The notes: generated by a model not told the origin, from the sequence alone. Counted from the stretch's first letter, positions 1-45,928 are shown. The stretch: 64,000 bases of DNA from Euglena gracilis (GCA_039621445.1 CP154954.1:17886589-17950588); one strand, 5' to 3'. Made by a program: numbers and translations.

Positions 1-299
1 CGTCCATCCACCCAAATCATCAAAAACTGTGTTTTTCGACTGTTTAATTTTTGCCCCCGTTCAAGTCCCACTCTGGCCCTTGGTCGGCCCTTTGGCCGAC
101 CAAGCCGTTCGTTCAGCCTTGCTGGGTGCAGGGCGGTCCTTAAGGGACAGGAAAGCTTTTTTTCTATTTCCTTAAGGACCGCCCCCCATTCATTCATTCG
201 GTCAGGAATGAATGAATGGGGGGCGGTCCTTAAGGAAATTAAAAAAAAACTTTCCTGTCCCTTAAGGACCTCCCTGCACCCGGCAAGGCTGAACGAACG
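1..299. repeat. Partial family A MITE followed by a long inverted repeat
   Basis: 1-98 matches family A interior; 106-299 is a near-perfect palindrome. Confidence 0.8.
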
Positions 300-730
300 T
301 GGCGGCACACCCTTCTGCATTCTATAACACAACATTTGGATTCCACACATGAAGTGTGTGCTTTCAACGTCAGCAGAGGTCATTTGAAATGACAAAAACA
401 AGCTAGGAAAACTTTCACTCCTCTGCAAAGCTGCTTTTTAATAAACAAATAAACAAAGACCCCAGGCAACAGCAGAGGGACCAGAGACAAAACATGACAT
501 GGCGGCCAACTACAAAAAAATTTCCAGGGCAAAATATTTTATGCAAAAAAATGCAAAAAAATGCAAATTTCGGAAAAACCTGATTATGCAAAAAAAATGC
601 AAATTATGCAAGTTGCATATTCCCCGCCCCTGCCCAAGCTCCTTTGGGGCAGGGGTGTCACAGCACCACCCTCCCCAAAACCTGTTCCCTTGGGGTCATT
701 GGGGTCAGGTGCGGGGGAGGAGGCCCACAC

Positions 731-808
731 TTCTGCAGCACCAGCTGCTGCCCCTGCAGCTCCAGATAGAACAGGGCGCCGCTGGTGCCCGCCAGCAGCA
801 GCTGGCCC
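731..808 (-). CDS. DDB1: DDB1 exon 18 ([17 protein letters not shown]...QK)
   Basis: Matches DDB1 Q...A.G.AL.YL; probable donor AA|gtgtgg. Confidence 0.88.
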
Positions 809-3800
809 CCCAGGGCCAGGGGCTTTTTCAGGACCCGGGGGGAGGAGGGGGGGTCCGGACCCACCCACCCACCCCCTGGGGGAGGCCCCCCGGGGGGGGG
901 GGGCTGGGGGAGACCCACTTTTGGGGGTCAATTTTGGGTCTAAATAAAATTTTCGGCGAGAAGCACCAAAAAAAAAAATGCCTCCAGAGTACCCACCCAG
1001 CCCGACCCCCCACCAGGGTTTCCCACTGATTCGTACTTGGGGACTCCTTTGCCCATTCGTACTTATTCGTACTTATTCGTACTTATTCGTACCTATTCGT
1101 ACCTATTCGTACTTCAAAAAAGGGCCATGTATGGCAATGGGTGACCATTTGGTATGCTTCCTTGGGCACATCTTCAACGTTCTGAAACCGGGAAAAGCAA
1201 GGAAAACAGGTCATTCACTTGAGAAACTATCTAAGTGACGAACTCATGCTGGCGAAATTTGTGGGGAAAAAATCGCGCTGTGAAAAAAAATACAAAACAT
1301 TACAGGAAAAACACATTCCTTCTTTGCGACTGATGTTGTCCAGCATGCCATGCACGAACAAATACTCAAGATGAAAAAGCGGATTGTTCAATTGTGTGCA
1401 AAGCGTTCTTCGCAGTCACCATTGCAAAACATGCCAACGGCTGCTTGCCGAAGGTTAGATGACATGTGTTGGCGGTTTTTGACATCAATCAGTCCTGCCA
1501 ATCTGAAAGACCGTTCAGACCAGGGCAATTCAATTTTGTGAGCCACACTTTCTTCCCGCTCAAGGATTTCCTTATGCTCGCAATGTGTGTGGTATACACT
1601 CTGTCCACTGACGGTGCAAACTACTCCCCTCTTTCACACTGCCATATACAGATGTGTACTTTCGGATGAGTCCCCTGATGGATGGATGGTCTAACTTGTT
1701 GATGGGCAAACCTAAAAATCATTTTCGGAGGGAAAAGAGGACATGAGGCGTCCTGCAGCGTAAGATATGCATCACATACAGAGAAGTGTGAGGGGCCCTT
1801 CAACTCAGTGCAATGGTGTAGAAAATTGTACCTTTTTCTACTTGGCAATTCGTACTTATTCGTAACTGGGGAATTTTTCATTTGTACTTATTCGTACTTA
1901 TTCGTACTTATTCGTATTTTGGCACATCTCGGCAATTCGTACTTATTCGTACTTATTCGTACTTATTCGTGTACGAATCAGTGGGAAACCCTGCCCCCAC
2001 CCCTGGGGGCTTGGCCGGGACCCACCCACCCCCCCCCCCCGGGCCACGAAACTTAAAAAAAAATCTCTGGTACGGATCCACCCGAGGGGGGGGGGGTCAG
2101 GGGGCTCGGGGATCCACTTTTGGGGGGCCAATTTTGGGGTCCAATCTTGATCGGTGCTTCGTGCCAAAAATCAAAAAAACCTGCCTCCAGCAGAGTACCC
2201 ACATGCCCCACCCCCCTCCCCCCTCCCGGGGCAGACCCACCCACCCCCCCTCCCCAGGGTCACCAAACTGTAAAAAAAAAAATCTCTGCCCAGGGCGTTG
2301 CAGCTCGCCAGGTTGATGGTGCACCCGCTTGGGCTGCTGGCCTGGGGGTTTGCTCCGGCCCAGCGCGGGAAGTAATTGGAATGGTTGCTCCGAAACACGA
2401 ATGGGGACTCCAACTGCCAAATTATGACCATTTTTTTCGACCGTTTTCCTGGTTGGAAGTTTTTTTTGTTTTGCCTGAGGACTGCGGGACCCCGCCGGGG
2501 GGTGGCAAAATGAAGCCTGGTGCTGGGGCAGGAATACTTTTCACATTAAGGGTCACCCTGCATTTAGCCAGAGGTGTGTGGGTCCAAGCACCCCAAATAC
2601 GGGTCGGAAAAGAAAAAACGTCAGGGAATGGTTTTTTTTGATTTTCGACCCTGTTCGATGTCTGGAACGGCCGTTGCCGGCACGCCCCTAAGGCCCAAGG
2701 GCGGTCCTTGACAAAAAAAAGCATATCATCTTTTATGGACCCCCTGCTTGCACTATGGGGTGCCTGCCAGCAGCGTGCACACCCCTGCGGGGGGGGGGGG
2801 CGGATTTGGGTTCCCAGCCCCAGCCGACCCAGCCAATTTGAAAATGGCCATTTTCATGTCCCCGGCGCCGAAGGTGGGCGTACTTTAGCACTGCCCACCC
2901 CAAAACCCAATCCCCAGGCTGAAAATGCCCTTCCCCCCTGCCTGCCCATAGCACTCCCCATTCAACGTTCCATCAAATTTCACAGAAAAAATGGCGAAAA
3001 ATTCCAAATTTTTCGGCGAGAATAGGTCAACATCACAACGTTTTTTAAAAAAAAACTACATTTTCTCACCTTTTTTTGAATGTCTACCCCGTTCAAACTG
3101 AATTATAAAAACAATCCTGTCCCTTGCGGACAAAGATTTCGGAAAAATTTTCAGGAGAGGTGAAAAACTGAAATAAAAATAATAATAAAAAAATGCTCTC
3201 ACATGGGGGAAAAAAACGCTTCCAACAAACCTTGAGGTGGGCCCTAGTCAGGCAAGTCAGGCAACTGTCAGATTGTTATCTGCAAAGAAAGGGAACCCCC
3301 GGTCCCATTCTTGGACCAAGCCTTTCGTTTGGCATGAGATCAGCCGGACACCCCGAGGGGTGACCTGAGTCAGAGGCATGGGCAGGGATGGTCTGACACA
3401 TGTTCTTTGGGGGCACCTCTCAAATGAAAGATAGGCGAGCACAAAAAAATTAAATTGGAATTAAAACTTGAATTCATGGTGCGGATCAACTTAGTTTTAA
3501 AACAATGTCTTCTTCGACAAGTTGATGAGACATGAAAAGTCTTCAACTTCCACAAAACAGCCGAGTCCTTGGGGGATCCAGGTTCACATCCACCCACCAC
3601 TGCAAGGGTTACCTGAATTGTTTGTTTTCACTGGGCATCCACAAAAAATCAAATGATGGTCCTGAGGCTAAATAAGAAGGATTGCAATTCCTGACAAATA
3701 TAGTTCACCAAATGGAAAAATATGTCAATGACCCCGCCTGGTGCAGAAATTTTTTCAAGGAACTGCAGAAAAAGAAGGGGTGAGCTGACCCAAATTTGAA

Positions 3801-6800
3801 CCAAAGTCTGAGAATCCCTGCAAAGCAATTTGTTATGATGAAATCTGAAAACTTTGGTTTGCATTAGATCTGTCACTTCTTTTTTTGGGACCTTGAACTT
3901 GCACCAAACATTTTTCACCCAAATCATATCTCTTGTATTTCTTCTCCATTTATGCTTGCTTTAGTCTGCATTGAAACAACAAACAACCAAAAAATTTTCC
4001 CCATATTCAAAATTATTTCCCCAAAATTTACTCAATCTCTCCCATGAGCATGCAAACTTGACTCCTTTGTAGTTTGGCAAACAAATAATAACATAATTTA
4101 TTATATAACAATAATGATAACACATCAATTTCAGGAGGGCAGCGGGTGGAAAAAATATCATTGAAATTTTGGGGGGAAATCAAAAATAACAACAAAATCG
4201 CGTTGTTTGAACCGGGAATTTCTTCATTTCTAGCACAAATCTTCTTCTTGAAATTGGCGCACCAGGTAAGAATTTGCAAACTCCAGTTGTAACAAAAGTT
4301 TGCCACAGTAAGCCAGCGGCAACGCAGCCAAGTCACCTGCACAAAGAAATGCGCCAGACTCTTGTTTTCGGCGGAGGCGATGTTGGTGCACAGCAGGGTG
4401 GGAAGGTCCGCCGCCAAGCCACCCAGCCTGGCTTCCTGACAGGCGAATATGCAAAAGCTTGCATCACTGCCAGCATTCTTGAAGGCCAGGTTCCTTTGCC
4501 CTTCCTTGCCCTCCAACTTTTCCTTACTGCACAAAAATGCAGAAATTGAACTGATGATGTCTTCCTCGTTCCTTCCCGAGACAAGACTCAAGACATTTCT
4601 CCCCGAGATATTATTGTTTAAAAGATGGTTTATATGGTGCTCCTGTTTGAATGTCCAGCATTGCATCGTTGAGTGTGGTACATTACTGCTTTGAAGCTGT
4701 GTAAGATACCTCCTCTGGTTGAGCCCCACAGGGGGCTGCACCTCGAAATCTAACCTTTGTTGTGTTGTATCATCTCTTAGAAACTGTTGGTTCGGAGGAA
4801 CTAATTCACAATCAAAAGTCCCCTTTTGCTTGAATGGGGAAAACAAAAATATGCGAGAAAACTATTAATCTCCCTCTTACACACCCTTCCAGTGAAAGAA
4901 CAATGAAACAAAAATTTTGGGCTGGAGGGAAAATAATGTGTTTGTTTGTGAATGTCATTGATAAATGCCATTGATGATAAATGGCAAAAAACCACACACA
5001 GGGGCATTTTGAACCATTTCAGGGGTCAGGATTTGACTTGATTAACAAATCCTTGAGGATTAGCAAACGATGGTGCAGAGATCCAACACAATGACAGCCA
5101 CATTAAATACCTTGTCATACAATTGTTAACCTACAGATGATTGTTTGACATTGATAAAACCTGCAATCAATGAGAAGAGGGTCACCCTATCCACAACCCT
5201 GCCGTCAATTACTGGGCTTGAAAGCTCAGAGTCCATTGGGCTGTTGATGCCATTGGTGGGGGAGACAGGCAAAGACAGAGACCTCGATGGATTCCTCGTC
5301 CTCCATGCTGAGCACCTTGGTCTCGTTGATGAAGGAGAGCACCAGGCTTCTTTTTACCGGGGGGAGGAGGGTCCCCCCTCCCACCCAGCCTGGTGCGGGA
5401 CCCCCGGGGGGGGACCCAAAAAATCGGGCTGTTTGCGAGCATTTCCCCCAAAAAATTTCGGTGTTCGCGCGGAAACCCAAACCCTTGCCTCCGGCCCTGG
5501 ACCCCCCCACCCCCCCCCGGGGGGGGGGAGGTCTTCTGACTTAAAAACAAGCCTGGAGAGCACCAAATACTTCGCGTTCAGCACTGCCTCCCCCTCCGTC
5601 ATGCTGTCCAGGGAGGGTTCCAGCAGGGACCACATTCCTGTGCAGGAGAGTTTTGTCAACCATTTGGCAGGGAGAACTATTAGCTTTCGACCTGCTCCAC
5701 GCAAAGCTGGTGGTTTTAAGCCGGGCTGAGAGCCCAGTTGGAGGCCAGGAATTGTGATCATGATCAAGTCGCTTCCCTGACCGCTTTGGTGGTGGCACAC
5801 CAATTTGGGGGGAGGGCACTATGAACGACCCTCCCCCACCCCCCCCCCCCGCTCAGCCCTGGAAAAAATGGCTCGCTGGAAACACACTGCTGGCTGACCC
5901 CCAATCCTGGGGTCCTGCGGTGGTCCATCACTGCTGTGGGGTGCAGCACGCAACCTTCTGGCGGCCCTGGACCCCAGCAACCTCGCACTAGCAAATAACC
6001 ACGGACCGCCTTGGAAGGTCAAGGAACCCTGGAGGGACCGAGCCACCGCCGGCGGGCGCGGCACACCCTTCACCCCCGTGAGCTGCAGCGAGGCCAGCTC
6101 GTTGATGCCGATGCCGTTGCGGATGACGCGGAGGCTGCCGTCCTTGAACGCCCCGCTGCAGGTCACCACTTGCCCCTGCCGCGCATAGGCACGGGGCATG
6201 GCGTCGGGAGCAGCAGTGGGGCTAGAGAAACACTTCTCTGGTTCCGGTGTTCTTTACAGGGCGGTCCTTAAGCAAATAAAAAAAAAACTCCGCTGTCCCA
6301 GCACACTCAGTGAAAAATACACGGGAAAATGGGCAAGAAATTTTGGCATTTTTCAGCGAGAACAGGTCGACATCAGGAAAAAAAATTGATTCCTGGCACC
6401 CTTGGACCATCGTCCATCCACCCAAATCATCAAAAACTGTGTTTTTCGACTGTTTAATTTTTGCCCCCCGTTCAAGTCCCACTCTGGCCCTTGGCCGGCC
6501 CTTTGGCCGAAAGGGGGGGGGGTCCTTAAAGAAATAAAAAAAACTTTCCTGTCCCTTAAGGACCGCCCTGGTTCTTTAAGACCGGGGAGGGGGAGGGGGG
6601 TCCCCATTGGCATTATGTATTTAAGGCTTAAAAACTTTTTTGGGCAAAAAGTGCCTGATGATGCCTTAAATGCCATAAAATGTTTAAAAATTTGGGTTGG
6701 CAGAACTTTCTCGAACCGAGCAAAAATGGAAGATGCAAAATATCGGCAAAAACACAGCCCAACTCTGGGGGGGAAAAATGATTTCTGGCATCGCTGGGAC

Positions 6801-9580
6801 ATTGGTCCAACCAAAAGTCAAAAAAACGTTGGTTTGATTCCCAGGCAGCCCTTTGAACGCTGTGGAAAACAGCATCTAAAAAAGCCTCAAAAAATGCCTT
6901 AAACTGCCTCAAAATTTTGAAAACAAAATACACCTGGTCCCCCACCCACCCAACAGAGGTAGGGGGTCCAGCCAACCCATCCACTCTGCTCCTTCCTCTC
7001 CCCCCTCCCGGGGTCCGAAACTTCCGTGCGCTGCCAAATCAGGCGTTGTTTGAGTCGTTGTTGGGAGGGGGGGGGTTGTTCAGCCAGGCACCATTTGAGC
7101 CCCCCCCCCCCCGCCACATATTGCGTGGTGTGTCCAACTTTCCTGTCGCTGTTTCACTGGTTGTTTTTTTTTAGAGACTGCCTGGTTCCAGGCCCTCCCC
7201 CCGGGTGGGATTGAACGAGGGGTGACCGAAAGAGGCCCATCCAGCACTGAAGGCGCAGGAGAATTCAGGTGAAAATGGCCAAACTGGATTGATTCTTGGT
7301 CATTTTGACGCTCCTCCTAAGCATGGGGGGGGGGGGGGTGCCTGCCGAGTCGCGGGCCAAAAAATGCCCAAAAATGGGTTTTCTGGGCTTCCGGAAGTGC
7401 CTTGGCCGACTGCCCAGGCACTTTTGGTTGTGTGCCCCCCTCCTGGGGGGGAGGAAGTCGGATGCCCAGGCAGGCACCCCCTTAGTTGCACTGAGGCTTC
7501 TTGTCTGTTAATGGCCGGCGCTAACTTCGCTTCTGGCCCAGTTTGTGTGGTGAGGCAGGCACCCCCCGAGGCAGGCACCCCCCCTGGGGTGGGGTCTGCC
7601 TCACGTTAAAATTGAGCCTGGCGCCCAAAGCCAAACAGAGGCTGTCTTATTTGCAGAACCTTCGACTGAAGCTGTGCTTTCAAACAGAACCCCTTTTGGA
7701 ACTGATGGCGAACTGTCTGAATGCATCAGATGTCCTTTGATGCCCTAAAGAGCACAAACGATGCGACCAGGTGTCTTTTCGCGATCCAAAGGGGGATTCC
7801 ATATGAGGGTCAGGCTGAATTTGACCAACCCTGGAGATGGGGATCTTGGGGTGTGAGTGGGCGGGTGGGTACTTCTCCCAAGGTTTGGCCATGTGCCCTA
7901 CCCCCCCCCTAGAGGGTTGGATCTGGGTGCCGTGGAGTGCCTTCCAGGCGGGCATCCCCCACCCCCAGATTGGGGTCGGCCTTGCCCAACAATATCAGCC
8001 AGATAAGGCCAGCTTGGACAGGTCCGTCAACAACAACAATGTTTTAAAAAAAACCCACCTGACGACATTTAATGCAAAATCCACAGGTGGTTGCAAAAAT
8101 GACCGTTTTCTGGCAAAAATGGGTCGACATCAGAAAAAAGCGGTGTTTGGCGTCCTTGAGGCATCGCCCATCCATCCGAAACATCAAAGAAATGCGGTTT
8201 TCGACTTTCGACGTTCCCATCCAAGCCCCAGACCGGCCGTTGCCCTGAGGCCTGAGGGCTGTCCTCAAGGGGCGGTCCTCACTACTGATTTTTCTAAAGC
8301 GCATTAAACAACCTTGAAAAAACCCAAAGAGTTTTGGCCAGAATGCCTTACAGTGCATTGGTGCCCTCCCCCTTGACTGGATGGAGGGCAGTCCGGGACA
8401 ATGTTGAACCATGGCTGCCAGAAGTCATGTTTTTTTCCGCAATTGGCTTGTTTTTGCCGAGAATTTGCAGTTGCATTTTCGCTCGTAAAGAGGAAATCGA
8501 GCCAAAAGTTTTTTAATGCCATTTTGATCTAAATGAACCATTCTTGGCCTGGTGTGAAGCGCTGGGCCGAAGATTCCCCAGCATCAACCCAAAATGCATT
8601 GATAGGCTCTTTTGGGCAAAAAAAAAAGCCGAAATTGCCAAAAAAAAAAATTCAATGCAAAGTGTCGGAAAGAAAATTTTTGACCCATTTGGGGGATCTC
8701 GGGTGCCCCCCCAAATTAACCGAGGGCACCCACCGTTGGTCTGAAGCAACCTTTGGTGGGGGGGTTTCCAGACTCTCCCTGTGGTCAAAAGGGAACGGCA
8801 CCATCGTTGGGTACGCCCTCCTCAAATTGAACCCCAGTGCAGGCTGCTGCCAAGCATCTATAGCCAAGCCCAAAAAAATCCCAATTTTAGGCCATTTTAG
8901 CCATTTTATGCCGTTTCAGGCCATTTTAGGCCATTTAAGGCCATTTTAAGGTATAGGTGGGGGTTCTGAAAATCATAATTTTGTGTCATTTTTGTCCCAA
9001 AAACTGTATCATAATGTATGCAAACCTTCTCTTATTCAGGAAGAAGAAATGCACATCTAAAAAAGCATGCAAAATTCATAAACACTGGATCAAAACCATG
9101 GGAAGCTCAACAAATCTTAATTCATACCCACAGAGGAATTCTGAACAAAGAATTTATCAGTTTACGGCAAAAAAAAAAGTTTTTCTGAAAACATTTTCAG
9201 AAAAAAATGTTGGACAAATGTTAAATCTTTTATTTGCACCACCAAAGAAGCGCCGGTCTTTTTTGCATTTTGTAAAATCATTTTGCGGGATATCGTAAAA
9301 GCAATCTTTTTCTTGAAAGATGATGCTTTTGCCTGGTGAAATTCAATTTGATTTTGGCAGTGTTTCAGCCATTTGGGTCTTTTTTTTTTGGCATGAGAGA
9401 GGATGGCAGAGATCAAAGGGCAAAGCTGAGAGCAATTCCTCTTCTCCGTGTTTCCCCCTTGGGGGAAACTTAATACTAAAAAGAAAACCCTCTGAACACG
9501 TTCATAAATATGAGAGAGCCACATTCATAATTGTTTGTGGTTATTTGGGTCATTTGATCATTATCATTATCATTATCACT

Positions 9581-9615
<35 letters not shown>

Positions 9616-9781
9616 TCTTCATATTATTAGTATTAATATTGTATTAGTATTAGTATTAGTATTAATATTAGTATTAGTATTAGTATTAGTATTAGTATTA
9701 GTATTAGTATTAATATCAGTATCAGTATCAGTATTAGTATTAGTATTAGTATTAGTATTAGTATCAGTATGAATAATAATA

Positions 9782-9832
<51 letters not shown>

Positions 9833-10407
9833 ATCATTATCATTATTTATCATTACTATGCTGATACTATTATTAGTTGGGATGCAAAAATGGGCCTTGT
9901 GGGGCTGTGCTCCTCCACCAAATCCACCGTTCGCCGTCCACATTAACAAAACACACCGAAAATCATTACCTGAATGGCTTCAGTTGTTCACAAAAAAAAT
10001 TGTTGTGCAACAGAATTTTACCATTTTAGGCCATTTTAGGCCATTTCAGGCCATTTTAGGCCATTTTAGGCCATTTTAGGCTATTTTAGGGACCCCCACC
10101 TATAGGGGGTCAAAAAGGCATTTTAGGCCATTTTAGGCCATTTTAGGCCATTTTAGGCCATTTTAGTGGCTGCCGCCCCCATCGGAAATAGCAGAGGGCC
10201 CACAGGAAGAAATTTGTTTCAGAATAGGCATTTTCTGGCATTCGCCTCGGGAGGGAGTCTGGACCGATCCAGATCTGGATACCCTAAATCTAGGTCTGGA
10301 TCAGGGTTTAGAGGGTTAGATATGATTGGTTAAAAAATGAGCCAGCAAACCAATTACATGTGTGTGTGTGTGTGTTTGCGTGCGTGTGTGTGCGCGTGCG
10401 TGCGCGC

Positions 10408-10491
<84 letters not shown>

Positions 10492-13400
10492 CAGGGCAGT
10501 CCTTAAGCAAATAAAAAAAAATTCCGCTGTCCCAGCACACTCAGTGAAAAAATTACAGGAAAATGGGCGAAATTTTGTCGTTTTTCAGCGAGAACAGGTC
10601 GACATCAGGAAGAAATTGATTCCTGGCACCCTTGGACCATCGTCCATCCACCCAAATCATCAAAAACTGTGTTTTTCGACTGTTTAATTTTCGCCCCCAT
10701 TCAAGTCCCACTCTGGCCCTTGGTCGGCCCTTTGGCCGAAAGGGGGGGCGGTCCTTAAGGAAATTAAAAAAAAAACTTTCCTGTCCCTTAAGGACCGCCC
10801 TCTGGTGTGTGCGCGCGCGTGCGTGTGCGCGTGTGTGCGCGCACGCGTGTGTGTGGGTGTGGTGTGGGTGTGTGTGTGCACTCGCAGCGCACATGGATGT
10901 AGAAAAGATCACTCAGAGTGGCTTGCACACCTGGCCCTGCCGGTCCAGATCCACAACCACAAAATCAACAATGGGGCCGAGGTTGGTGAAGCTCTCCAGG
11001 GTTTCAATGGCACTCCCACCCCCTGAACAGCAAAGGGGACCCTCAATGCGCGCCTTTCTGGGCGAAAACAAAAATTGAACTAAGCCAGGTGTGGCCCCCG
11101 AAGTTGGCCTTTTCGGCCTTTTGCACATGGCCCAAAACTCTGAACATCCAAACTTGACCACATAAGATTGGCCCCCTAGCCTGAACTTCAATCATCAGAT
11201 GCACATTCTCCTAAAAACAACCTCTGGCAGGGCAGGTTTGAGCCCCCCCCCTCGCAGTTGGTCAAATTCAGCCTGGCCTATTGGCATTGGAAAGCATTGA
11301 TACCTCCCCACCAAAATGGAGCATCTCTGGTGAAAAAAAAAACGTTGTATCCACCCAAAACTTGTCCTCTTTTTCCTGAATGACATCAGCGTCTGGCTCC
11401 AACGTCGGGGGGGGGGGGGGCTTCACATTTGGGTGGCAAAACCAAACCCCCTGGGGGGGCTGAATATTTGGGGGGGGGATACCCCCTGGTGGGAGGGGCA
11501 GTGTCAGCCACCCCGGAATCCAAGGAAAATTTGACACAAACGTGAAAAAGGGCAAAAAATGTTTCTGTCGCCTTCGACGCCGGGTCACTTTGGTGGTCTT
11601 TTGCCGACCCCCCCCCTCCCCACAGACATCTTGAGGCTATAATCACAATTGTCTGACCAACCAAATCTCGAAAACTCTTTTTTAACTTTCACGTCGAAAA
11701 TAGAAAAGTTCGATGCCTGGGCCACTCTTGGACCATCCTTGGAGACTAGTGGTTTAAAAAACCAGTCACTTTGAATAAACCTCAAGCAGTGACAAGGTTT
11801 CACTCCGTTGTTCAGAAATCTGAAAAATAATTTCTTCAAAAAATGAGCTTGGAGGCCACCTGAAATGATTTTGGGATCGATCTGTGACTTCGAAAATCGT
11901 GCCCAAACGATGACCCGGTCATGGAATTTGGCTGCTGAATTTATTATTTGGAGGATTCAGGGAATTTCTTAAGACAGCGGGAGGGGTCAGGGAGAAAAAT
12001 TCTTTCCAATTTTGGAACATGTTAAAACTGTGAATTTGGTACAAGAGCAATTCTGACCCTGAATGCATCCTGACCCTGAAAAAAAGTTGGGAGGTCAAAA
12101 TATGCATCATGACCCTGAAAAAAAGTTGGGAGGTCAAAATATGCAAAATATGATTAAAATACACATTATCCCAAATTTTTACAACGTAAAAGCTGAAAAC
12201 TATGCAAATGAGAAATTGCAATAATCTAGATAATGCAAAAGAAATGCAAATGATGCAACTTGCATAACCCCCCAGGCATTATTGTTTAAAGCGCCTGAAA
12301 AAACCTTAAAATGGGCCTCACAAATTTTGGCCAAAATGACTTAAATTAGAATTTTGGACTGGGAGACTCCAACCGAGAGGAGCTGTCCGCCCCTTGGACC
12401 TAAAGGCGGTCCTCAAGGGGCGGTCCAGAAGGGAAAAAAAAAACTTCCCATCCCTCATGGACTGCCTGGCAAAAAATAAGCCCACTCTGGAGAGAGCCAA
12501 CTCTGGACATTGTCCATCCAACCAAATCTCAAGAATGAGTTTTTCGACCTTTTTTGATTTTGGACCACGTGCAAAATCAACAACGTTTGGTTCGATGCCC
12601 AGGCAGCCCTTGGAGTGCCCTGGAAAATGGTGCCTTAAAATGCCTTAAAAAGCCTTAGAAGGCTTTAAAACGCCTTGGAATGCCTGGAAGTTTTGAAAAA
12701 AAAATGCGTTAAAAAATAATGCCTGATAACCCCCCTCCTGCAGATGCCCCCCAAAAATAATCTAAACCCCCAAATGGAGGGCACATACCAGGCTGCGATG
12801 CCAGGCGAACCAGTTGGGAGTCCGTAAATGCCCCACCAACAAATACCATAGAGGAGCCCAGGAAAGACAAGCAAGACGGAATGCAAGTCTGCAGAGGTGC
12901 GACCAGGGTGAAAAAAGTGCGGACCAACGAGACCGCCTTTTCGATGCACCTCATCACATACTATCGCCCTGGTAATATGGGTAACTGCATTGGGGCTGAA
13001 AAGAAGCTAATTCAATTTCAAAAAAATATTTGGGTATTATTATTATTATTATTGGAGCCAAACCTTCTGGCACCCAATGCCAACATTTCAGAGACATTTT
13101 TTTGCACAGAAAAGGAAGCATGTATTTTGATTTAAATGCGAAGCCTTGGGGTATTGGTTTCATGGGATGGGTCCCGCGATGATGACAATTTTCAAGTTGG
13201 TCCAATTTTCTCTCTACCCTGAAAGCTTTGACCCCAACCTTCATAAATCCTGGAACGCCAATTGGATGCATGGAGGCCAGGGTTGGGGTTGTTGTTCAGT
13301 TTGGGGATGAGGTGAGGGTTTGGACTTCTGAAGGATTACCATCGGGACCGAATGGCCGCCCGAAATTGTTTCACAGAATTTTTGGGGTATGTGCAGCCCA

Positions 13401-16400
13401 TGGGGTGCAGCACGCCAAGTTGGATGACTGTTCGGCAGCTCCCAACTATATGGCCCCCCCAGGGGGGGGGCATGTAGTTGGGAGAGGGGGGTCCAAAAAT
13501 TTTTTTGTGTTATTGATGGAATAGGGTTAGGGTTAAGAGGTAGGATTAGGGTTAGGCCTAACTTATAGCGTGAAGTTAGGCCGAATTCGTAACCCTAACC
13601 TTACTCCATCATTAACACAAAAAAATTTTTGGACCCCTCTCCCAACTACATGGCCCCCTGGGGGGGGGGGGGCCATATGGTTGGGAGCTGCCAACTGTTC
13701 TTGGGGTGGGCACGCTGGTGGATTGCTACTCCACTCCCCAGTTGCAAAAGGCATGCACTGCTGTGCATTTCAGTCCATTTCCCTCTGGCAAGAATTAGGC
13801 AAGAATTTGAGGAAAACTATGACCATTTTTTTTTGTCAGGATGTATGCTGACCATTTATCCCTCAGGGTGGGTGTGCAGACTTCATTCCAGCATGCAGAT
13901 TTTGTCTGGGACTGCAGCTCTTGAGGAAGAAATGATTCTGTTGACAAAGAAGCGTTCTGTTCAAAATGTTTTGTTTTGGTTTTGGAAGAATGTTTGCCCT
14001 CAAAAAACACCTGAAATCGTTTTATGAAAAACACAGTTGTGCGGACATGTACTTTTTTCATGCATCATTCGACAAAGAGCGAAAATCTGGGGTCATGCAA
14101 GTGCCTATATTTTTTTTGATCGGGGCCATGGGGGGGAAACTTTGGACATAAGGGAGCGTGGTGTTCTGAAATAAAAAATATCATAGGCAACCTTCAACAA
14201 CTTCCAGGGCATTCCTCAAATACCCTCCTGAATCCAGTGACCCATGCCATGCCAGAAGCACACACGGGGGGGGGGGAGGGCATAATTTTCTAGGTGTCTT
14301 TAAAAAACCTTAAAACCGTTTAAAACCTGTGGGGAAAAAATGCCCAAAAAATGCCTTCAAATACTTTGAAATGCCTTTAAAACCCTCAAAAAAAATCATC
14401 CGGCAAAATTTTTCGTCTGACCGAGCAAAAATGAAATCACAAAATCTCGGCACAAACAAGCCAGAGTTAGAAAGGAAAATGATTTCTGGCATCCTGGAAC
14501 ATTGTTTGTCCACCCAAACTCAAAAAAAAACATGGTTTTCAGCTTTTTGGGTTTTGACCCCTTTCTCGGAGGGCCCCTGTCCCCAGAAAAATGGAAATTT
14601 AAACAGCCTTTAAAAACATTAAATGTTCAAAAAAATATCTTTAAAAAACTTCACAAATTAAAAAAAAACTTTCACCTTAAAATCAATCGGGTGTCCACTC
14701 CCAATTTGGGGGGGGGTCGATTTTTGGGTCCTTTGAGCCACAAATAGAGGAACCCCCCCTCTGGGGGCACCCACTGGACACAACCCTCCCCCTGGGGGTC
14801 ACCAACAATTTTAAAAAGAACCTCTAGGCACTACAAAGGTGAAGAATCCTTATTGACCAGACATCAACATACCTCTCCAATAACATCCAAATGTAACTCA
14901 ACATTATCTTCAATCGCTGCCAGCATCACAATGAACAGTCGCCCAGCTTGATCTCCAAGGAGAAATCTGGAAAAGCAGCAAAAACATCGTGGAATAATTG
15001 GTACGGAATTAATTACCACCATTTTCCATTTTCCGATGACTTCTGGTATTTTAGGCTCTTCCAGTGCGGTTGAAACCTCTTGAGGCATTGGGATGAGAAT
15101 CATCACAGGCTTCTATTTAAGGGACACCCATGATCCCAGAAAAAACACCGATAGACTGAACCAGGTGAAACGGCAGATAAAACCCAGGCAGATAAACCCC
15201 CCCCAAAAAAGACACAAAAAAACATGAACAAAGGCGCAAAAAAAAACACAACTAAACACAAAAAAAGCAAATTTGATTTGTGCATAAAAAAACATGCTTT
15301 TTTGTGATTTAAACATGATTTTTGTGATTTTGGGGACACACTGATGCCAAAAAACATTCAATTTATCAGCCAAAAAAAATGTCAAATGTCAAAAAAACTG
15401 ACAAATATTTTGCTTTTTGAGAAGAACTTGAATCAGAATTTTTCAACACAAAAAGGAAAAATCGAAAACCGCAAATCCCCCCCGCTGAGACCCCACCTTG
15501 CATGATTCTTGACCTGCAGCCACAAATCGGTGGACCCCACTGGTGAGCACCCAGACCAATCCTCAGTGTAAGAAAATGTTGTCCCAGAACCAAAAACCAA
15601 CAAAAAATATACAAAAACCCCGAAATATCTCTGCAAAACCAGGTCGACATTGGGGGAAAATAATACCTTGGACCATTGCCCGTCAACCCAAAACAGCACC
15701 AAAAAATCAAACAGCACTTTTCTCCGACTTTGCAAAAATTTTGACCCCCTGGACGGGCCTTGAATTGAAGACCGCCCATTCTGTCTGGGAAGCCACACCT
15801 CTGGTTGTCTATGCGGCACCACGCCCGGATGACGGAGGTGCTGCAGCCCACCGCGGTGCGGCTGCAGATGGACTTGGTGTATGTCCCGCTGTGGTAAGTG
15901 AGCAGCTCCTCCCCGATGATGAGCAGGCCTCCCAGAGGCGGCGGGACCTGCAACGAGATGGCCGCCGTGCGCTGCAGGCATGTGCATGTACTGCTTCCCA
16001 AATTTCCTGCTGTTTGGTTTTGGTCGTTTGTCTTTGGTTTGGCAAGACTGAATCTTTTTCACTGCGCACATCCGCCCTCTATAATAACAGCTTCTGTTGC
16101 GTTGTTGGATGCCAGAAAATGCGCAATCTTGTGTTATTTTTGACTGCAATTTCGAGTGACTTGTTTTTTGACTGCACAAAACGACCTTAGAGGGATTCGG
16201 GGATTCATATATATACATATATATTAAATATATACATATATTTCATCTGCGCTTAAAGACCACACTGATCCCTGGGGGGTCGACCCCTATCTCCATCTTG
16301 GTGGATGGGGGGGTTTCCTGATTTCTGGCATGCTTGGATCCGGGGGGGGGGGCGACTTGAAGCTCCCCCCAGGTACCAGGCCATTGCTTAAGGCAGGGCG

Positions 16401-19400
16401 GTCCTAACAGAAATAAAAAAAAGAAAAAAAAACCTCTCCACTGTCCAACACTCAAAACAAAATATACAGGAAAATGGTCAAGAAAATTTGGCATTTTTTT
16501 TGGCAAAAACAGTCAACTTTAGGGGGAAAAAAAACTGATTCCTGGCCTCCTTGGACCAGTGCCCATCCACCCAAAGAATCAGAAAATGTGATTTTCGCCT
16601 TTCTCATTTTTGACCCCATTCCAGTCCCAGTCGGCCGCTGGTCGGCCCTTTGGCTGAAAGGGGGAGTCCTTAAGAAAATTAAAAAAAACATTCCTGTCCC
16701 TTGAGGACTGCCCCGGGAGGGGTCCAGGGGTTCCCCCTCCCAAGGTTCCCCCCAACTGGAAAAAAAAATTCCTCCGGCGCTGCGCACCAAGTTGGAAATG
16801 AGGTTTTCAATGGTTTTTTGGCTGATTTTGTTCGCAAAAACCCAAAAATGGCCAAAGATGGGGATTTGGGCCGGTTTTGGGGGTCCCAAATAATTTTCTG
16901 CGCTTCGCGATGGTCACTGGGAAAAGTTTGTCCACCAGCCAGCCCTACTAGCAGACCCCCCCCAGGGTCCACTAGGATTTCCACCAGCCAAATTTGGACA
17001 AGCTGCAGTCCAGTCCCCCCCCCCCAGGGGTGGACAGGGGAGGGTGTGCTGCAAACGAAAGGCCTGGCAGGCAGGTACCCCCCCAAAAAGGAAAAAAAAG
17101 CCCAAATCCAGCTGGGTTGGAAGTTTTCAGCCAAAATAGGAGGTGACCCAAAGCCACCCCCATTTTTGCCTCCTTTTTTCAAAAAAAAGTTCCAGTCCAG
17201 TCCAAACCTTATTTCAATGGACCCGGCCGGGAGTTGCTGGTTGGAAAAAAGGTGCTGGCTGGTTGGACCCAGGCATTATTTATTATTTATTATATTTAAA
17301 AACCTTGAAATTTTCGTTCTGCCCAGATGGCCAGATGGCTCTTGAACCGCCTTAAAGATAGATGCCTTAAAATTTTTTTAAAAATCTCAATATGCCTCAA
17401 AAACCCTCAAAAAAAAAACTCAAAAAAAAAAACTCCATAAACCTTTAAAATTTTTGACTTTTTTGAAATCTTTGAAAATTTTCGACTTAAAGAAATAATG
17501 ATGCCTGGTTGGACCCTCCAGCTTAAGAAACCTGTGTCAACTCCACCCCCCAGGGGGTTGACTGACTGGCTTTTTTGGAGTGACTGGCTGGTTTTTTTTT
17601 TTTTGGCTCCTGGACCCCCTCCCTGTGAAAGCCAATATCACAAGAGAAATTTTTCTCCTGGAGATGGCAAAAAGCAGAATTCTTCTCAAAAGTTTCCATA
17701 CTTGTCCATTGCTAAACTTTGTTTCCTTACATTTGGCGATTTATCACTTTATTGCATATTTTTCCTACCATTTCAAAATTACATTTTCAGGCATTAAACC
17801 CGCCCCAAATAGTATTCCCCCAAATAATATTCCTCCCAAATAACATTCCTCAACTTCAGCCGCCCAAAATAATATCCCCCCCCCATTTTGCACAGAGCGC
17901 AACAGAAACAAAGGAGTTTTCCTGGGAGCTGGGACCGTACTTTTTGTGCAATTTTTACATGAATTCCACCATGTTCAGATTGAAAACAGACAGGAAAATA
18001 CCAAAAGGTGCAATTTGAGATGTTGCTTTGATGGTGTTCGACATGGAGACAGTGCATTTCACAATCAAGATTTTACGCCCGAAAACCCAGGGAAATAATC
18101 GCCAAATAATCCCGCCCTGAGGGTGGACTTCAGCGGACCAAATGATATTCCCGAGGGGTGGAATTATTTGGGAGGTTATTTGCATTTTTTTTGCCATTTT
18201 GGACACATATTCCTTCAAAAAATTCATTTTTCCTATAAAAAAATCAAAAAAACTTTTTCCTTGAATGTCTTCATGAGAACCCAGATATTTTTTCCAACTG
18301 TGATGAAACCAAATGCGAAGCAGCCGTGAGAACAACAATGGCATTTCTTTGACAATCAAATTTTTGTTGCACGGAATTTCCAAAAATAATTAAACTCAAA
18401 GAACAAACCCCCCACCAAATTACAAACTTAATTATGCAAAAAAGCCAGTAATTAACCCCCCAGGTCACCAATCTTAAATAAATCGGGGTTGGGACCCCCT
18501 GCCTCGATACCGAAGGCCTTCCCACACATCCCTGCGGTTTCTGGGATTCCCTTTCAGCCCTGGCCGGGCCATGCAGCTTATCGTTTGGGCAAAACAACCA
18601 TCCCAATCATGCAAAAAACGCAAATACAATCACGATTTGTGACGGATCATCCCAACGCATACCGGTATGAGCAGCGACGCGGTGTTTTCCACGTTGTGTT
18701 GCACAAATGGGTGATCCACCAGGTCTTTGTCAGCCACCATGATGTTGTAGGCCTTGACATGCCTGCAGGCAAATGTGAGGTGTGCAAAGGTGATGGAAAT
18801 CAAAAATTTCCCATCATTCCTTTTTCCCATAATCTGTCCCCCCAAATGCCCTGAGTACGTTCGAGCTTCAGGGGTGATCTTGTGTCTCATAAAAGGAAGG
18901 GGGATATTCACATTTTTGGGCCGGGAAACCTAGATGCTTTTGGTTTAAAGCACAAAAGACAACAACTGTTTTTCCAAAGTAAGGCGTCCCATCATTATTT
19001 TCCCTTGGAACTGTTTCAATTGAATCACATTTAGCCGTCAATTTCCCCTCATTCCCGTCAGTTTGACAGTACCGCGGGGTCCCATTCGCATTCGGAATGC
19101 GCCCTTGGTCACCCAATCAAAAACCCAGCACCGGTCCCAAAAGAAAGTTGCAGGCAGCCTAACCTGGCTTTTTAGACTGTGGACCACCCCCCCCCTGGGG
19201 GACCACAAACCTGTGCTGCTTTTTTTTTTCGTTTTTTTGCTTTCGGACCGCCCTGTCCTCCACAAAGTCCACACCCCCTTCTTCAGCATGGGCCGATCAT
19301 ATGAATGTTCTGAGTTCATTGTCTTCGGGTTTGGCTTCAGGTGGCGCACCAGAGCACAAGAATAAGAGCTCAAGCTCATCCTGGGGGGGGGGGTCCAGCC

Positions 19401-32283: not shown

Positions 32284-32355
32284 GGTCTTATAGTGTAGCG
32301 GTTAGCACATGGGATTCTGATTCCCATAACCCCGGTTCGAATCCGGGTAGGACCT
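32284..32355 (+). tRNA. tRNA-Gln (anticodon CTG)
   Basis: 72-nt cloverleaf: acceptor GGTCTTA/TAGGACC, anticodon arm TGGGA-TTCTGAT-TCCCA, T loop TTCGAAT, downstream T-runs (Pol III terminator). Confidence 0.95.
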
Positions 32356-34900: not shown

Positions 34901-36408
34901 TAGGCACAGGGGGGGGAGGGGGGGGGCGGAAGGGGGGCGAGCGGCTGCGCAGGCAGGGGCCGCGCGGGGGGGGGGGTCCGGGACCCCCCCGAGCGGCGCG
35001 CCTAGCCTCCATGAGTGCTCCGAGCAAAGACGCTTTTGTGCCTCAAGGTATGGCAGCTCGTGGGATGTGCCAAAACAAAGGCCTGGTCCTGGACAGGAGA
35101 TCGTGAATTGTTGTCGCCCTGGGTGCATTTGGCTGGTGAGACTTCTTCGTGGTGGTGGGGCGAACCGAGTCCACCGACCAATGGCATAGCCTAAACCCCC
35201 CCTAATGAGTGCACAATGCCCTAATTATGTGCAGTGCCCTGATACAGGGCGAACTGAATCCACTGACCATCGGCACTACCTACTGGATTTGAGAATGTTC
35301 GGGGATGCAAGACCATATACATAACGAAATTGTGAGGATGTAGTCAATGGCTTTCCCATAACGTCAAACAACACACGGCAATCAATCATGATACAAGACA
35401 TCTAACATTAAAACATGAAATCCTTCAAGCATAGTTGGCAGCTTGTTTTTTTTGGACGCTGTTTTTTTGTTTTTTATTATTAAAACAATGTTTTTTTTAA
35501 AAAAATGCCAACAAGGTTTTGTTCCCGAAAAAAAATTTTTGAACGCGCATTTTCAATCATTTTGGCAAGTTTTGGGTCATTTTTGCCAGAATTTTCCTTG
35601 CACAAAAAACATGAAAAAAGTCATAAAGTTGCATTTTTTGCATTTTTGGATGTTTTTGACCATTTTTTGGCAATTTCTGAACTTAGCAGGATTCAAAGTA
35701 TGGTTTGGGTGTTTCGTGACGATTTTTTTTTTTAATGAATGATCCAAGGAGGACATGTGGAATGGCTCCTTGTGTCAAATTACTGGTGGAAGAGTGGGTT
35801 GTCAACGCAAGAGTGTTTCCATGTATTTCGAGCCCAAACGACGGCCACATGCTGCTTACTTGAAAGAACCGCATGGCTTTTGATGGGCATTTGTGCTGCC
35901 CCTTGCAAAGTCTTTTGCCCCATTGGGCTGATTGAACATTAAACTTGGGGTGAGGAAATAACATTCTCTACATTGGCATTGTGATTCCATGCTGTAGGAA
36001 TGTGCACCCGAGCTCGAAGCATGGGCACAACTGACTTGTGCATCACATTCCGCCTCTACACCCACGGACATCGTATGACAAGCGAACATGGTGTGTAATA
36101 AGGCGACCCCTTTGGACTGCTCTTCTTTGCTCTTGCGTGGTAGGATGTGGTCCAAGCGTTCCCAAAAGACCTGGCCTTAAGCCGGCGTTTGAGACGCCGG
36201 GTTCAGGACAGAACCGGCGCCCCCCCCCTGGGTTTTCCGGACGCCGGTTCTGTCCTAAAACTCGGCGTTAGGAACACCAGTTCTGTCCAAAACCCGGCGT
36301 CCGGTTTGGGACTGTATTTTGTGCAAAAAAGGTGTGCAAATGTGACCCCGGAAGCGAAATCTCCTTGGCTGAAGGGGGATAAGAGGCTGATTGATAAGAG
36401 ACACAATT

Positions 36409-39690: not shown

Positions 39691-39759
39691 GACAATTAGG
39701 GCAAATTAAGGCACAACGGTGCTTTCTATATATTGCAAAAACTGGCTCCTACACTAGAC

Positions 39760-45856: not shown

Positions 45857-45928
45857 AGGTCCTACTCGGATTCAAACCGGGGTTATGGGAATCAGAATCC
45901 CATGTGCTAACCGCTACACTTTAAGACC
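45857..45928 (-). pseudogene. tRNA-Gln(CTG) pseudogene
   Basis: Same sequence as 32284-32355 but U8 to A, T loop TTTGAAT (C56 lost), T-stem mismatch. Confidence 0.85.

What the first reader, a model, noticed from the sequence alone, without database searches (positions are those of the whole stretch)
809..5563. hAT-MITE intron-generating system: the nonconventional-intron consensus equals transposon end plus 8-bp TSD
Seen: two separate DDB1 introns are CAG...CTG-terminated elements with perfect 8-bp TSDs made of coding sequence; no in-frame GT-AG solution exists. Established: 8-bp TSDs with CAG/TAG-type ends mark hAT elements, and euglenid nonconventional introns typically pair CAG at +4..+6 with CTG at -8..-6; a transposon origin has been proposed in general terms. 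Inference: 3 nt before CAG plus 5 nt after CTG is 8 nt, exactly one TSD. Splicing in that register removes any such insertion without a scar, in either orientation and any phase, so the splicing pathway would both neutralise hAT insertions and mass-produce introns. I cannot check how much of this arithmetic is already published.
Basis: partly seen in the sequence, partly recalled or inferred. Interest (0 to 1): 0.92.

Follow-up and report, generated by a model that had tools for sequence, protein, structure and literature searches.

The report
Transposon insertions spliced as Euglena introns
Two introns of a Euglena gracilis DNA-repair gene are small transposon insertions that the cell cuts out of the RNA exactly, together with one copy of the 8-base duplication made at insertion, which supports and sharpens a published idea about where Euglena's unusual introns come from.

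Summary
The window is Euglena gracilis nuclear DNA carrying the 5' part of DDB1 on the minus strand. Of its 17 in-window introns, 13 have a GT-AG register and 4 do not. Two of those four are CAG...CTG-ended inverted-repeat elements flanked by perfect 8-bp duplications of coding sequence: 817-2288 and 5343-5555. RNA reads and the transcriptome protein show removal of the element plus exactly one duplication copy. A DNA run shows no such joined form. Five more CAGG...CCTG elements lie in non-coding parts of the window, with direct repeats of 8, 8, 8, 9 and 7 bp. Random controls give none at 8 or 9 bp. The duplication therefore comes from transposition, not from splicing. The published nonconventional splicing code has spacers of 3 and 5 nt around CAG...CTG. 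These map onto the two duplication copies, so 3+5=8 is correct arithmetic. A MITE origin, and "TSD-like" repeats, are already in print. I found the 8-bp/hAT link in no paper searched. The hAT label is unproven because no transposase was found. Generality is untested, and the other two nonconventional introns carry no duplication.

The parts
733..30095 (-). Euglena gracilis DDB1 gene, 5' part (residues 1-559 of 1205). It has 18 exon blocks and 17 introns, and the gene runs off the window start.
817..2288 (.). Element E1, the core of DDB1 intron 17. It is 1472 bp with termini CAGGGGC...TCTCTG (TIR 9/14). It is composite: unit E1a (817-1013 plus 1994-2066) is interrupted by a nested element and is followed by a 5'-truncated related unit E1b (2067-2288).
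   Evidence: RNA joint 808->2289
809..816 (.). TSD copy CCCAGGGC, left of E1. On the transcribed strand it reads GCCCTGGG, within the codons for A-L-G.
2289..2296 (.). TSD copy CCCAGGGC, right of E1.
812..2291 (-). Intron 17 drawn in the published N3-CAG...CTG-N5 register (1480 nt). The next exon starts with G.
1014..1993 (.). Nested 980-bp non-autonomous element inside E1. It has perfect 23-bp TIRs (CAGGGTTTCCCACTGATTCGTAC) and subterminal ATTCGTACTT repeats. It is flanked by a 7-bp exact repeat CCCCCAC, which could be an 8-bp TSD after a one-base slip in a C run.
   Evidence: no Pfam family in 10 ORFs
2339..3304 (-). Intron 16, nonconventional and not slidable. Its ends are GAC-CGG...CCC-AGGCC|A, one mismatch from the published CGG-CCG variant. 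No TSD trace remains.
   Evidence: RNA joint 2338->3305
5343..5555 (.). Element E2, the core of DDB1 intron 13. It is a 213-bp MITE with TIR CAGGCTTCTTTTTA / CAGGCTTGTTTTTA (13/14).
   Evidence: RNA joint 5333->5555
5335..5342 (.). TSD copy GAGAGCAC, left of E2. On the transcribed strand it reads GTGCTCTC, within the codons for V-L-S.
5556..5563 (.). TSD copy GAGAGCAC, right of E2.
5338..5558 (-). Intron 13 drawn in the N3-CAG...CTG-N5 register (221 nt). The next exon starts with C.
6257..6570 (.). Non-coding MITE inside conventional intron 11. TIR CAGGGCGGTCCTTA matches 14/14. The 8-bp TSD GTTCTTTA lies at 6249-6256 and 6571-6578.
   Evidence: In the DNA run, 13 contigs lose likeness exactly at 6257 (table 7).
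10492..10804 (.). Second copy of the same MITE family (92.7% identical to 6257-6569), also in intron 11. The 8-bp repeat GTGTGTGC lies at 10484-10491 and 10805-10812, within a GT-rich tract.
12273..12725 (.). Non-coding MITE in intron 10. TIR CAGGCATTATT matches 13/14. It is flanked by a 9-bp direct repeat ATAACCCCC.
17270..17507 (.). Non-coding MITE in intron 7. TIR CAGGCAT matches 11/14. The 8-bp TSD GTTGGACC lies at 17262-17269 and 17508-17515.
19894..20975 (-). Intron 5, nonconventional and slidable by 1. It fits neither the CAG/CTG code nor a TSD.

Best explanation
DDB1 introns 13 and 17 of Euglena gracilis are insertions of non-autonomous inverted-repeat DNA transposons (MITEs) into coding exons. 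Their termini are 5'-CAGG...CCTG-3'. Each insertion duplicated 8 bp of coding sequence.

The cell removes them from the pre-mRNA by the euglenid nonconventional-intron pathway. The published code for that pathway is a terminal helix that starts with CAG paired to CTG, a cut 3 nt upstream of CAG, and a cut 5 nt downstream of CTG. On a fresh insertion, the 3 nt are the end of the upstream duplication copy and the 5 nt are the start of the downstream copy. What is removed is therefore the element plus 8 nt, and the original reading frame is restored.

Shown here: the elements, their duplications, their precise removal from RNA, and elements of the same kind with the same duplication length in non-coding DNA.

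Inferred: the cut register (it cannot be read from a slidable intron), the hAT-like superfamily, and the idea that this geometry explains the spacer lengths of the code in general.
For: - The window is E. gracilis DDB1.
- 4 of the 17 in-window introns lack any GT-AG register.
- Introns 13 and 17 have perfect abutting 8-bp repeats and CAG...CTG termini, with TIRs of 13/14 and 9/14.
- End-to-end pairing energy is -24.1 for E2 against -16.6+/-2.4 for shuffles, and -28.5 for E1 against -24.6+/-3.4.
- RNA joints remove the element plus one repeat copy. Read counts are similar to those of neighbouring GT-AG introns: 12 and 6 reads against 12, 7 and 5 in X21. The DNA-type run X20 shows no joined form.
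- Five more CAGG-ended TIR elements lie in non-coding DNA, with flanking repeats of 8, 8, 8, 9 and 7 bp. Controls give 0 at 8 or 9 bp.
- Two copies of one family are 92.7% alike, and contigs of the DNA run lose likeness exactly at terminus 6257.
- Published work agrees. Spacers of 3 and 5 nt, the CAG/CTG motif and the following helix are each needed, and synthetic 50-bp introns built on these rules splice (PMC12501133 sections 8 and 10). The E. gracilis logo is CCAGG at +3..+7 and CCTG at -9..-6 (PMC11170887), which matches the CAGG/CCTG termini here and the C that ends 6 of 7 flanking repeats. A recently gained E. agilis gapC intron has eight-nucleotide direct repeats (PMC4770533).
Against: - Only 2 of the 4 nonconventional introns in this gene carry a duplication. 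Introns 5 and 16 show none, and intron 5 does not fit the code.
- In the 3/5 register, intron 13 puts a C at the start of the next exon. An A-to-C change there gave an unstable transcript in the published assay.
- A 6-nt 3' spacer still gave functional product. The 3' cut is therefore not a pure 5-nt ruler.
- One element has a 9-bp flanking repeat and one a 7-bp repeat.
- No transposase lies in the window. Three of the seven elements begin CAGGC.
- No further full copy of E1 or E2 is in the window. Their high copy number rests only on summed contig depth, which the tool warns is not a copy number.
- No genome-wide test was possible.
Confidence: 0.8

Rival explanations
1. The elements are MITEs with 8-bp duplications, but of a superfamily other than hAT. 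Candidates are Merlin, which is reported in E. gracilis with 8-bp TSDs, and P or another 8-bp family (those two from my recall). This reading changes only the hAT label.
For: PMC8101967 reports two Merlin families in E. gracilis, both making 8-bp TSDs. No hAT transposase was found in the window. Three of the seven elements start CAGGC, not the recalled hAT YARNG. The TSDs show G......C (first base G in 4/7, last base C in 6/7), not the recalled hAT nTnnnnAn.
Against: The same paper describes Merlin TIRs as having a conserved terminal 5'-GG-3'. Here the duplications abut CAG/CTG directly. CAGGG and CAGAG ends, as in E1, 6257, 10492 and the nested element, fit the recalled hAT terminus. I could not see the E. 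gracilis Merlin TIR sequences, which are in a figure and a supplement.
Confidence: 0.35
2. The match between the spacers (3+5) and the duplication length (8) is not causal in origin. The splicing ruler existed for other reasons, and exonic insertions survive only if their geometry happens to fit. In this reading the code filters transposons rather than deriving from them.
For: Many nonconventional introns have no direct repeat at all: 30.9% in E. agilis and 4,498 of 16,151 in E. gracilis. The 3' spacer tolerates 6 nt. Introns 5 and 16 here have no TSD.
Against: All seven CAG-ended elements in the window, from at least four TIR families and five of them in non-coding DNA, have the termini the code needs. 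The intronic halves of a TSD are free to decay, so repeat-free introns are expected with age. The two readings predict the same present-day behaviour.
Confidence: 0.3
3. The 8-nt direct repeats come from double-strand-break repair during intron gain, as proposed for the E. agilis gapC intron, and not from transposition.
For: Milanowski et al. 2016 offered this reading for an eight-nucleotide repeat at a newly gained intron (PMC4770533).
Against: The inserted sequences have terminal inverted repeats. They also have relatives, with the same termini and the same repeat length, in non-coding DNA of the same window. That is the signature of a transposase's staggered cut.
Confidence: 0.05
4. The two introns are removed by the ordinary spliceosome at non-canonical sites.
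For: None was found here. Spliceosomes in some other lineages do tolerate non-canonical ends (review PMC11282704).
Against: No register is GT-AG or GC-AG: 0 of 14 for intron 13 and 0 of 10 for intron 17. Both introns fit the separate CAG/CTG helix code, which was defined genetically.
Confidence: 0.05

Closest known systems
Euglenid nonconventional introns with the code 5'-N3CDG-/-CH'GN5-6|R (Nomura et al., PNAS 2025, PMC12501133; Milanowski et al. 2014 and 2016)
   Same: There is no GT-AG register. CAG lies at +4..+6 and CTG at -8..-6. A terminal helix forms, the ends are slidable, and removal from mRNA is precise.
   Different: Here the helix is the TIR of an identifiable multi-family transposon, and the spacers are halves of an intact 8-bp TSD. 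Intron 13 has a pyrimidine at the exon start, against the stated preference. The PNAS study set slidable introns aside when deriving the code.
Recently gained nonconventional intron 4 of E. agilis gapC, with eight-nucleotide direct repeats (PMC4770533)
   Same: It is a young nonconventional intron with an 8-nt repeat at the junctions.
   Different: The authors ascribed the repeat to double-strand-break repair. No TIR family or non-coding relatives were reported in the passages I read.
Introner elements of Micromonas, Aureococcus, dinoflagellates and others, as reviewed in PMC11282704
   Same: MITE-like DNA transposons insert into exons and are born as introns, and their TSD contributes to the removal site.
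   Different: Introners are removed by the spliceosome, using a splice site carried by the element and one co-opted from a 3-5 nt TSD. Here no GT-AG exists, and removal is measured from the TIR helix across an 8-bp TSD.
hAT-superfamily MITEs (family features recalled, not tested by a tool); the maize Ds element creating an intron is cited in PMC3935182
   Same: The TSD is 8 bp, the TIRs are short and begin CAGGG or CAGAG, and the nested element has subterminal short repeats.
   Different: No transposase was seen. Three elements start CAGGC. The target bases show G......C rather than the recalled nTnnnnAn.
Merlin transposons of E. gracilis (PMC8101967)
   Same: They are DNA transposons of the same species that make 8-bp TSDs.
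   Different: Merlin TIRs are described as ending in 5'-GG-3', whereas these elements end in CAGG with the TSD abutting the C.

Membership tests
Euglenid nonconventional intron | No GT-AG or GC-AG register compatible with the mRNA | tested here: met
   0 of 14 registers for intron 13 and 0 of 10 for intron 17. In contrast, 13 of the 17 introns have one.
Euglenid nonconventional intron | CAG at +4..+6 and CTG at -8..-6 in a register that gives the observed mRNA | tested here: met
   Registers 5338-5558 and 812-2291.
Euglenid nonconventional intron | Base pairing after CAG and before CTG that brings the intron ends together | tested here: met
   E2: 13/14 positions, -24.1 against -16.6+/-2.4 for shuffles. 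E1 is weaker: 9/14, -28.5 against -24.6+/-3.4.
Euglenid nonconventional intron | Purine at the first base of the downstream exon (a preference) | tested here: inconclusive
   Intron 17 has G there; intron 13 has C. Intron 13 is nonetheless spliced, with 12 junction reads.
Euglenid nonconventional intron | Removed from mature mRNA | tested here: met
   RNA joints. The transcriptome protein P0001 reads through both sites.
Euglenid nonconventional intron | Spliceosome-independent removal with a circular intron product | not testable with these tools
   Known to me only from the review text. The primary paper is not held.
MITE (non-autonomous TIR DNA transposon) | Terminal inverted repeats | tested here: met
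   Between 9/14 and 14/14 in six elements; copy 10492-10804 scores 4/14 ungapped because of a 2-base indel in one arm; the nested element has 23 perfect bp.
MITE (non-autonomous TIR DNA transposon) | Target-site duplication of constant length abutting the termini | tested here: met
   8 bp in 5 of 7 elements, 9 bp in 1 and 7 bp in 1. Controls give 0 at 8 or 9 bp.
MITE (non-autonomous TIR DNA transposon) | Many copies in the genome | tested here: inconclusive
   The 6257 family has two full copies (92.7% alike) and further ends in the window. E1 and E2 are related to each other only (59-69% identity) and have no further copy in the window. DNA-run depth is 100-1000 times that of the flanks, but it is not a copy number.
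MITE (non-autonomous TIR DNA transposon) | No transposase gene of its own | tested here: met
   E2 is 213 bp long. None of 10 ORFs of the nested element reaches a Pfam cut-off.
hAT superfamily | 8-bp TSD | tested here: met
   5 of 7 elements.
hAT superfamily | TIR terminus YARNG (recalled) | tested here: inconclusive
   CAGGG or CAGAG in E1, 6257, 10492 and the nested element. CAGGC in E2, 12273 and 17270.
hAT superfamily | Autonomous partner that encodes a hAT transposase | not testable with these tools
   No genome is held. No transposase domain in 121 ORFs from 30-64 kb or in 10 ORFs of the nested element.
hAT superfamily | Target consensus nTnnnnAn (recalled) | tested here: not met
   T at position 2 in 3 of 7 and A at position 7 in 2 of 7. 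Instead, G is first in 4 of 7 and C is last in 6 of 7.
Merlin superfamily | TIRs with terminal 5'-GG-3' (PMC8101967) | tested here: not met
   The termini are CAGG and the TSD abuts the C.
Introner elements (spliceosomal) | GT/GC-AG splice sites supplied by the element and its TSD | tested here: not met
   No such register exists.

The most novel reading that the evidence does not exclude
The 3-nt and 5-nt spacers of the euglenid nonconventional splicing code are the two halves of the 8-bp target-site duplication made by one class of CAGG-ended DNA transposons. On this reading the pathway acts as an RNA-level excision system for that class. Every exonic insertion, in any phase and in either orientation, is born as a removable intron. 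Most of the more than 70% nonconventional introns of Euglena would then be such insertions at various stages of TSD decay.
Probability: 0.4. Interest if true: 0.8.

Novelty: new member of a known kind. Interest (0 to 1): 0.6.

Why it matters
Where Euglena's nonconventional introns come from is stated to be open in the most recent papers I read (PMC12501133 discussion; PMC6221363). The MITE idea has so far rested on inverted repeats and "TSD-like" repeats.

This window gives concrete cases. Two spliced introns are intact TIR elements with intact 8-bp TSDs. Elements of the same kind sit in non-coding DNA nearby.

If the 8 = 3+5 relation holds genome-wide, it would give a reason for the numbers in the genetically defined splicing code. 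It would also explain why such introns spread so easily: an exonic insertion costs the gene nothing.

It also suggests that the "slidable" introns set aside in the genome-wide study are the most informative ones. The question becomes testable with existing assemblies and with the existing knock-in assay.

Tried and rejected
- Whole genome: none is held for this window, so no genome-wide count of repeats or families was possible.
- Run index: no RNA holder listed. The raw RNA runs were laid instead.
- Extra copies of E1, E2 or the nested element in the window: blastn found only partial, low-complexity matches.
- Metagenome scan with the 16-nt terminus of the 6257 family: 103 stretches were found (80 listed). 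blastn of the whole MITE and of the whole window against them gave no hit, so they are chance matches.
- Transposase search: 121 ORFs of 90 aa or more from 30-64 kb gave no Pfam family above cut-off (one weak hit, E 0.0078, below cut-off). I passed 121 of the 247 ORFs that survived a low-complexity filter, choosing those from 30 kb onward. Ten ORFs of the nested element gave nothing better than E 0.1.
- P0003 as a possible genomic relative: it is only 46% identical to P0001 and so is not a close relative. No empty-site comparison with a sister species was possible.
- Survey of all 64 terminal trinucleotides: it was noisy. Most non-CAG 'hits' are palindromic 8-mers inside longer palindromes, or homopolymer runs. 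One possible CTGG...CCAG element with an 8-bp repeat lies at 49143-49506.
- Filled/empty sites in the 12-kb segmental duplication: the one clean case (about 36410-36749 against about 48705) is a GGGC-ended element with a 4-bp repeat ATTG, not a CAG-type element. Two inverted blocks were too complex to read.
- Literature: seven searches, plus in-paper searches for hAT and TSD, found no statement linking 3+5 to an 8-bp TSD or to hAT. The JMB 2021 paper on circular intron RNA is not held. Supplements were not seen, including Fig. 1B and S3 of PMC12501133 (sliding distances) and the appendix of PMC8101967 (Merlin TIRs). Either could already contain the answer.

Full report
What the window is. A 47-residue exon translation (6065-6205, minus strand) finds the Euglena gracilis transcriptome protein eukprot EG_transcript_838 (P0001, 1205 aa) at 100% identity. 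P0001 carries the three RSE1/DDB1/CPSF1 Pfam domains. In that search, 610 of 663 candidates had E <= 0.001, and the named ones are DNA damage-binding protein 1. tblastn and exact 7-mer anchoring place P0001 residues 1-559 on the minus strand from 30095 down to 733, in 18 exon blocks. The gene runs off the window start. One residue differs: L in the window against P at residue 429 of P0001.

Intron census. For each of the 17 in-window introns I listed every donor/acceptor pair that reproduces the P0001 protein. Thirteen introns have a GT-AG register. Four have none:
- intron 5 (19894-20975);
- intron 13 (221 nt, 14 registers);
- intron 16 (2339-3304, a single register);
- intron 17 (1480 nt, 10 registers).

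The two elements. E2 is 5343-5555 (213 bp). Its ends CAGGCTTCTTTTTA and CAGGCTTGTTTTTA (reverse complement of the right end) match at 13/14 positions. GAGAGCAC abuts both ends. E1 is 817-2288 (1472 bp). Its ends are CAGGGGC and CAGAGAT (9/14), and CCCAGGGC abuts both ends. On the transcribed strand the duplications fall within the codons for V-L-S and A-L-G, inside ...[12 protein letters not shown]... and ...SCNALGGQLL.... P0001 and human-like DDB1 relatives read through both sites without a gap.

E1 is composite. Unit E1a (817-1013 plus 1994-2066) carries a nested 980-bp element (1014-1993). The nested element has perfect 23-bp TIRs and subterminal ATTCGTACTT repeats. E1a is followed by a 5'-truncated related unit, E1b (2067-2288). 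E1a and E1b share 140 of 202 aligned positions; E1a and E2 share 124 of 210. Because the outermost termini share the TSD, the whole block behaves as one insertion.

RNA evidence. I laid two raw RNA runs (X21, X24), one contig set that is probably RNA (X1) and one DNA-type contig set (X20) on 1-9500.
- Joint 808->2289 skips 1480 nt and can slide by 8. It has 6 reads in X21, 2 in X24 and one X1 contig.
- Joint 5333->5555 skips 221 nt and can slide by 11. It has 12 reads in X21 and the same X1 contig.
- Joint 2338->3305 (intron 16) cannot slide. It has 3 reads in X21 and 2 in X24.
- Neighbouring GT-AG introns have 12, 7 and 5 reads in X21.
- None of these joints occurs in X20, so removal happens at the RNA level.
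- The 11-nt slide at E2 is the 8-bp TSD extended by one base on one side and two on the other, because the target reads G-N8-CA.
- Unique intron bins have no RNA depth. Depth inside the elements cannot be read as retention, because related copies elsewhere contribute reads.

Transposition or splicing artefact? If the 8-bp repeats were a by-product of intron gain or of splicing, they should be confined to spliced sites. They are not. Scans of the window for CAG...CTG pairs with inverted-repeat ends and abutting direct repeats recover five more elements. All five lie in non-coding DNA: four inside conventional DDB1 introns and one nested in E1.
- 6257-6570: TIR 14/14, TSD GTTCTTTA.
- 10492-10804: same family, 92.7% identical, repeat GTGTGTGC.
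- 17270-17507: TIR 11/14, TSD GTTGGACC.
- 12273-12725: TIR 13/14, 9-bp repeat ATAACCCCC.
- Nested element 1014-1993: 7-bp exact repeat, or 8 bp after a one-base slip in a C run.
Thus 5 of the 7 elements have exactly 8 bp.

Controls. Among 1022 CAG...CTG candidate pairs with TIR >=10/14, exact abutting repeats number 3 at 8 bp and 1 at 9 bp. Four offset controls sum to 0 at 8 bp. Thirty Markov-1 random windows (mean 683 candidates) give 0 at 8 or 9 bp. In the DNA run, 13 contigs lose likeness to the window exactly at 6257, as expected for other copies with other flanks. Summed contig depth over the elements is 100-1000 times that over unique intron sequence, though the tool warns that this is no copy number.

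Fit to the published code. Nomura et al. (PMC12501133; I read the abstract, sections 5 and 8-11, and passages of the discussion) report the following:
- 71.8% of E. agilis introns are nonconventional.
- CAG sits after 3 nt and CTG 8 nt from the end.
- The 5' spacer must be 3 nt. The 3' spacer is best at 5 nt and tolerated at 6.
- The CAG/CTG motif and the following helix are both needed.
- A purine is preferred at the start of the next exon.
- Synthetic 50-bp introns built on these rules are spliced.
They set aside "slidable" introns (69.1% of the nonconventional ones) when deriving the logo.

In E. gracilis the logo is CCAGG at +3..+7 and CCTG at -9..-6, and 11,653 of 16,151 nonconventional introns have ambiguous ends (PMC11170887, passages).

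Mapping this onto a fresh insertion, [TSD][CAGG...CCTG][TSD], the 3-nt spacer is the end of the upstream TSD copy and the 5-nt spacer is the start of the downstream copy. The excised piece is the element plus 8 nt, and the mRNA keeps one TSD. In this register intron 13 is 5338-5558 and intron 17 is 812-2291. The extended logo also fits: all seven elements start CAGG at least at one end, and the flanking repeat ends in C in 6 of 7 and starts with G in 4 of 7. The register itself cannot be read from these two introns, because any split of the 8 nt gives the same mRNA.

Points against, or limits.
- Introns 5 and 16 show no TSD. Intron 16 fits a CGG...CCC variant with 3- and 5-nt spacers and a purine at the exon start. 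Intron 5 does not fit the code. Old insertions would lose the TSD, since at each of its 8 positions one of the two copies is intronic. That is an inference.
- Intron 13 places a C at the start of the next exon. This base gave an unstable transcript in the published assay. Yet intron 13 has as many junction reads as its neighbours.
- A 6-nt 3' spacer still gave functional product. The 3' cut is therefore not fixed by distance alone, and "scarless by geometry" is too strong.
- E1 and E2 lie in the same orientation, so "either orientation" follows from logic only.

Superfamily. An 8-bp TSD, short TIRs starting CAGGG or CAGAG, and subterminal repeats resemble hAT elements. The family features here are recalled, not tested. 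Against the label:
- no transposase lies in the window;
- three elements start CAGGC;
- the target bases do not follow the recalled hAT consensus.
Two Merlin families making 8-bp TSDs are reported in E. gracilis (PMC8101967, passages). That paper describes Merlin TIRs as ending in GG, which does not fit, but I could not see the Euglena TIRs themselves. I rate hAT at about even odds.

What is already known.
- The MITE origin was proposed in 2013 (PMC3935182, passages).
- It is repeated in 2018 (PMC6221363), in 2025 for diplonemids (PMC12621601), and in the PNAS discussion.
- The 2024 review (PMC11282704, passages) calls CAG/CTG the TIR and speaks of TSD-like repeats at the junctions.
- Milanowski et al. 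2016 (PMC4770533, passages) saw eight-nucleotide direct repeats at a newly gained E. agilis gapC intron and suggested double-strand-break repair.
In seven literature searches and in-paper term searches I found no statement that the spacers sum to the TSD length, none of an 8-bp TSD as a rule, and none naming hAT. Supplements and the JMB 2021 paper were not seen.

Verdict. The objects are two new, well-documented members of a known kind: euglenid nonconventional introns of proposed MITE origin. What this window adds is direct evidence that such introns are intact TIR/TSD transposon insertions with non-coding relatives. It also adds a simple quantitative link (8 = 3+5) that makes the origin question testable. 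The hAT label and the general claim remain hypotheses.

Noticed in passing
window 34918-47189 versus 47218-58694: A segmental duplication of about 12 kb, adjacent in the window, at 94-99% identity. Two blocks are inverted between the copies (37676-38323 and 41651-42018), and there are several indels.
   Followed up: partly
window 32284-32355 (+), 45857-45928 (-), 57354-57425 (-): Three tRNA-Gln (anticodon CTG) genes. The last two lie at matching places in the two duplication copies.
   Followed up: no
window about 36410-36749, against the empty site near 48705: A filled/empty site pair within the duplication. A 340-bp element with GGGC...GCCC-type inverted ends is present in one copy only and is flanked by a 4-bp repeat ATTG. 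It is either a different transposon class or a microhomology deletion.
   Followed up: partly
window 49143-49506: A possible element with CTGG...CCAG ends (TIR 11/14, G-rich) and an 8-bp repeat GATCTGGC. CTG-CAG is the one swapped motif that the PNAS 2025 assay found spliceable.
   Followed up: no
window 7478-7545: A short stretch with far higher RNA depth than its surroundings (15-20 against less than 1). Many reads run off into unlike sequence at both edges. It is probably part of an expressed multi-copy sequence.
   Followed up: no
window 1-300 and 6421-6520: The window start is another copy of the interior of the 6257-type MITE, here carrying an extra palindromic insert (105-300). Its right end, CCTCCCTG, lies at 269-276.
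   Followed up: partly
window 5334-5344 / 5555-5565 and 17261-17270 / 17507-17516: At two of the elements the direct repeat extends beyond 8 bp, because the target has G before and C after the duplicated 8 bp. Across the seven elements the flanking repeat starts with G in 4 and ends with C in 6. This hints at a G-N6-C target preference.
   Followed up: partly
window 1434-1718: RNA reads and an RNA contig join 1434 to 1718, with 21 other letters in between. Other, transcribed copies of the nested 980-bp element therefore differ in their middle part.
   Followed up: no
window 9557-9831 and 10359-10490: Long simple repeats lie inside DDB1 intron 11: (ATC)n, (TATTAG)n, (ATG)n and (TG)66.
   Followed up: no
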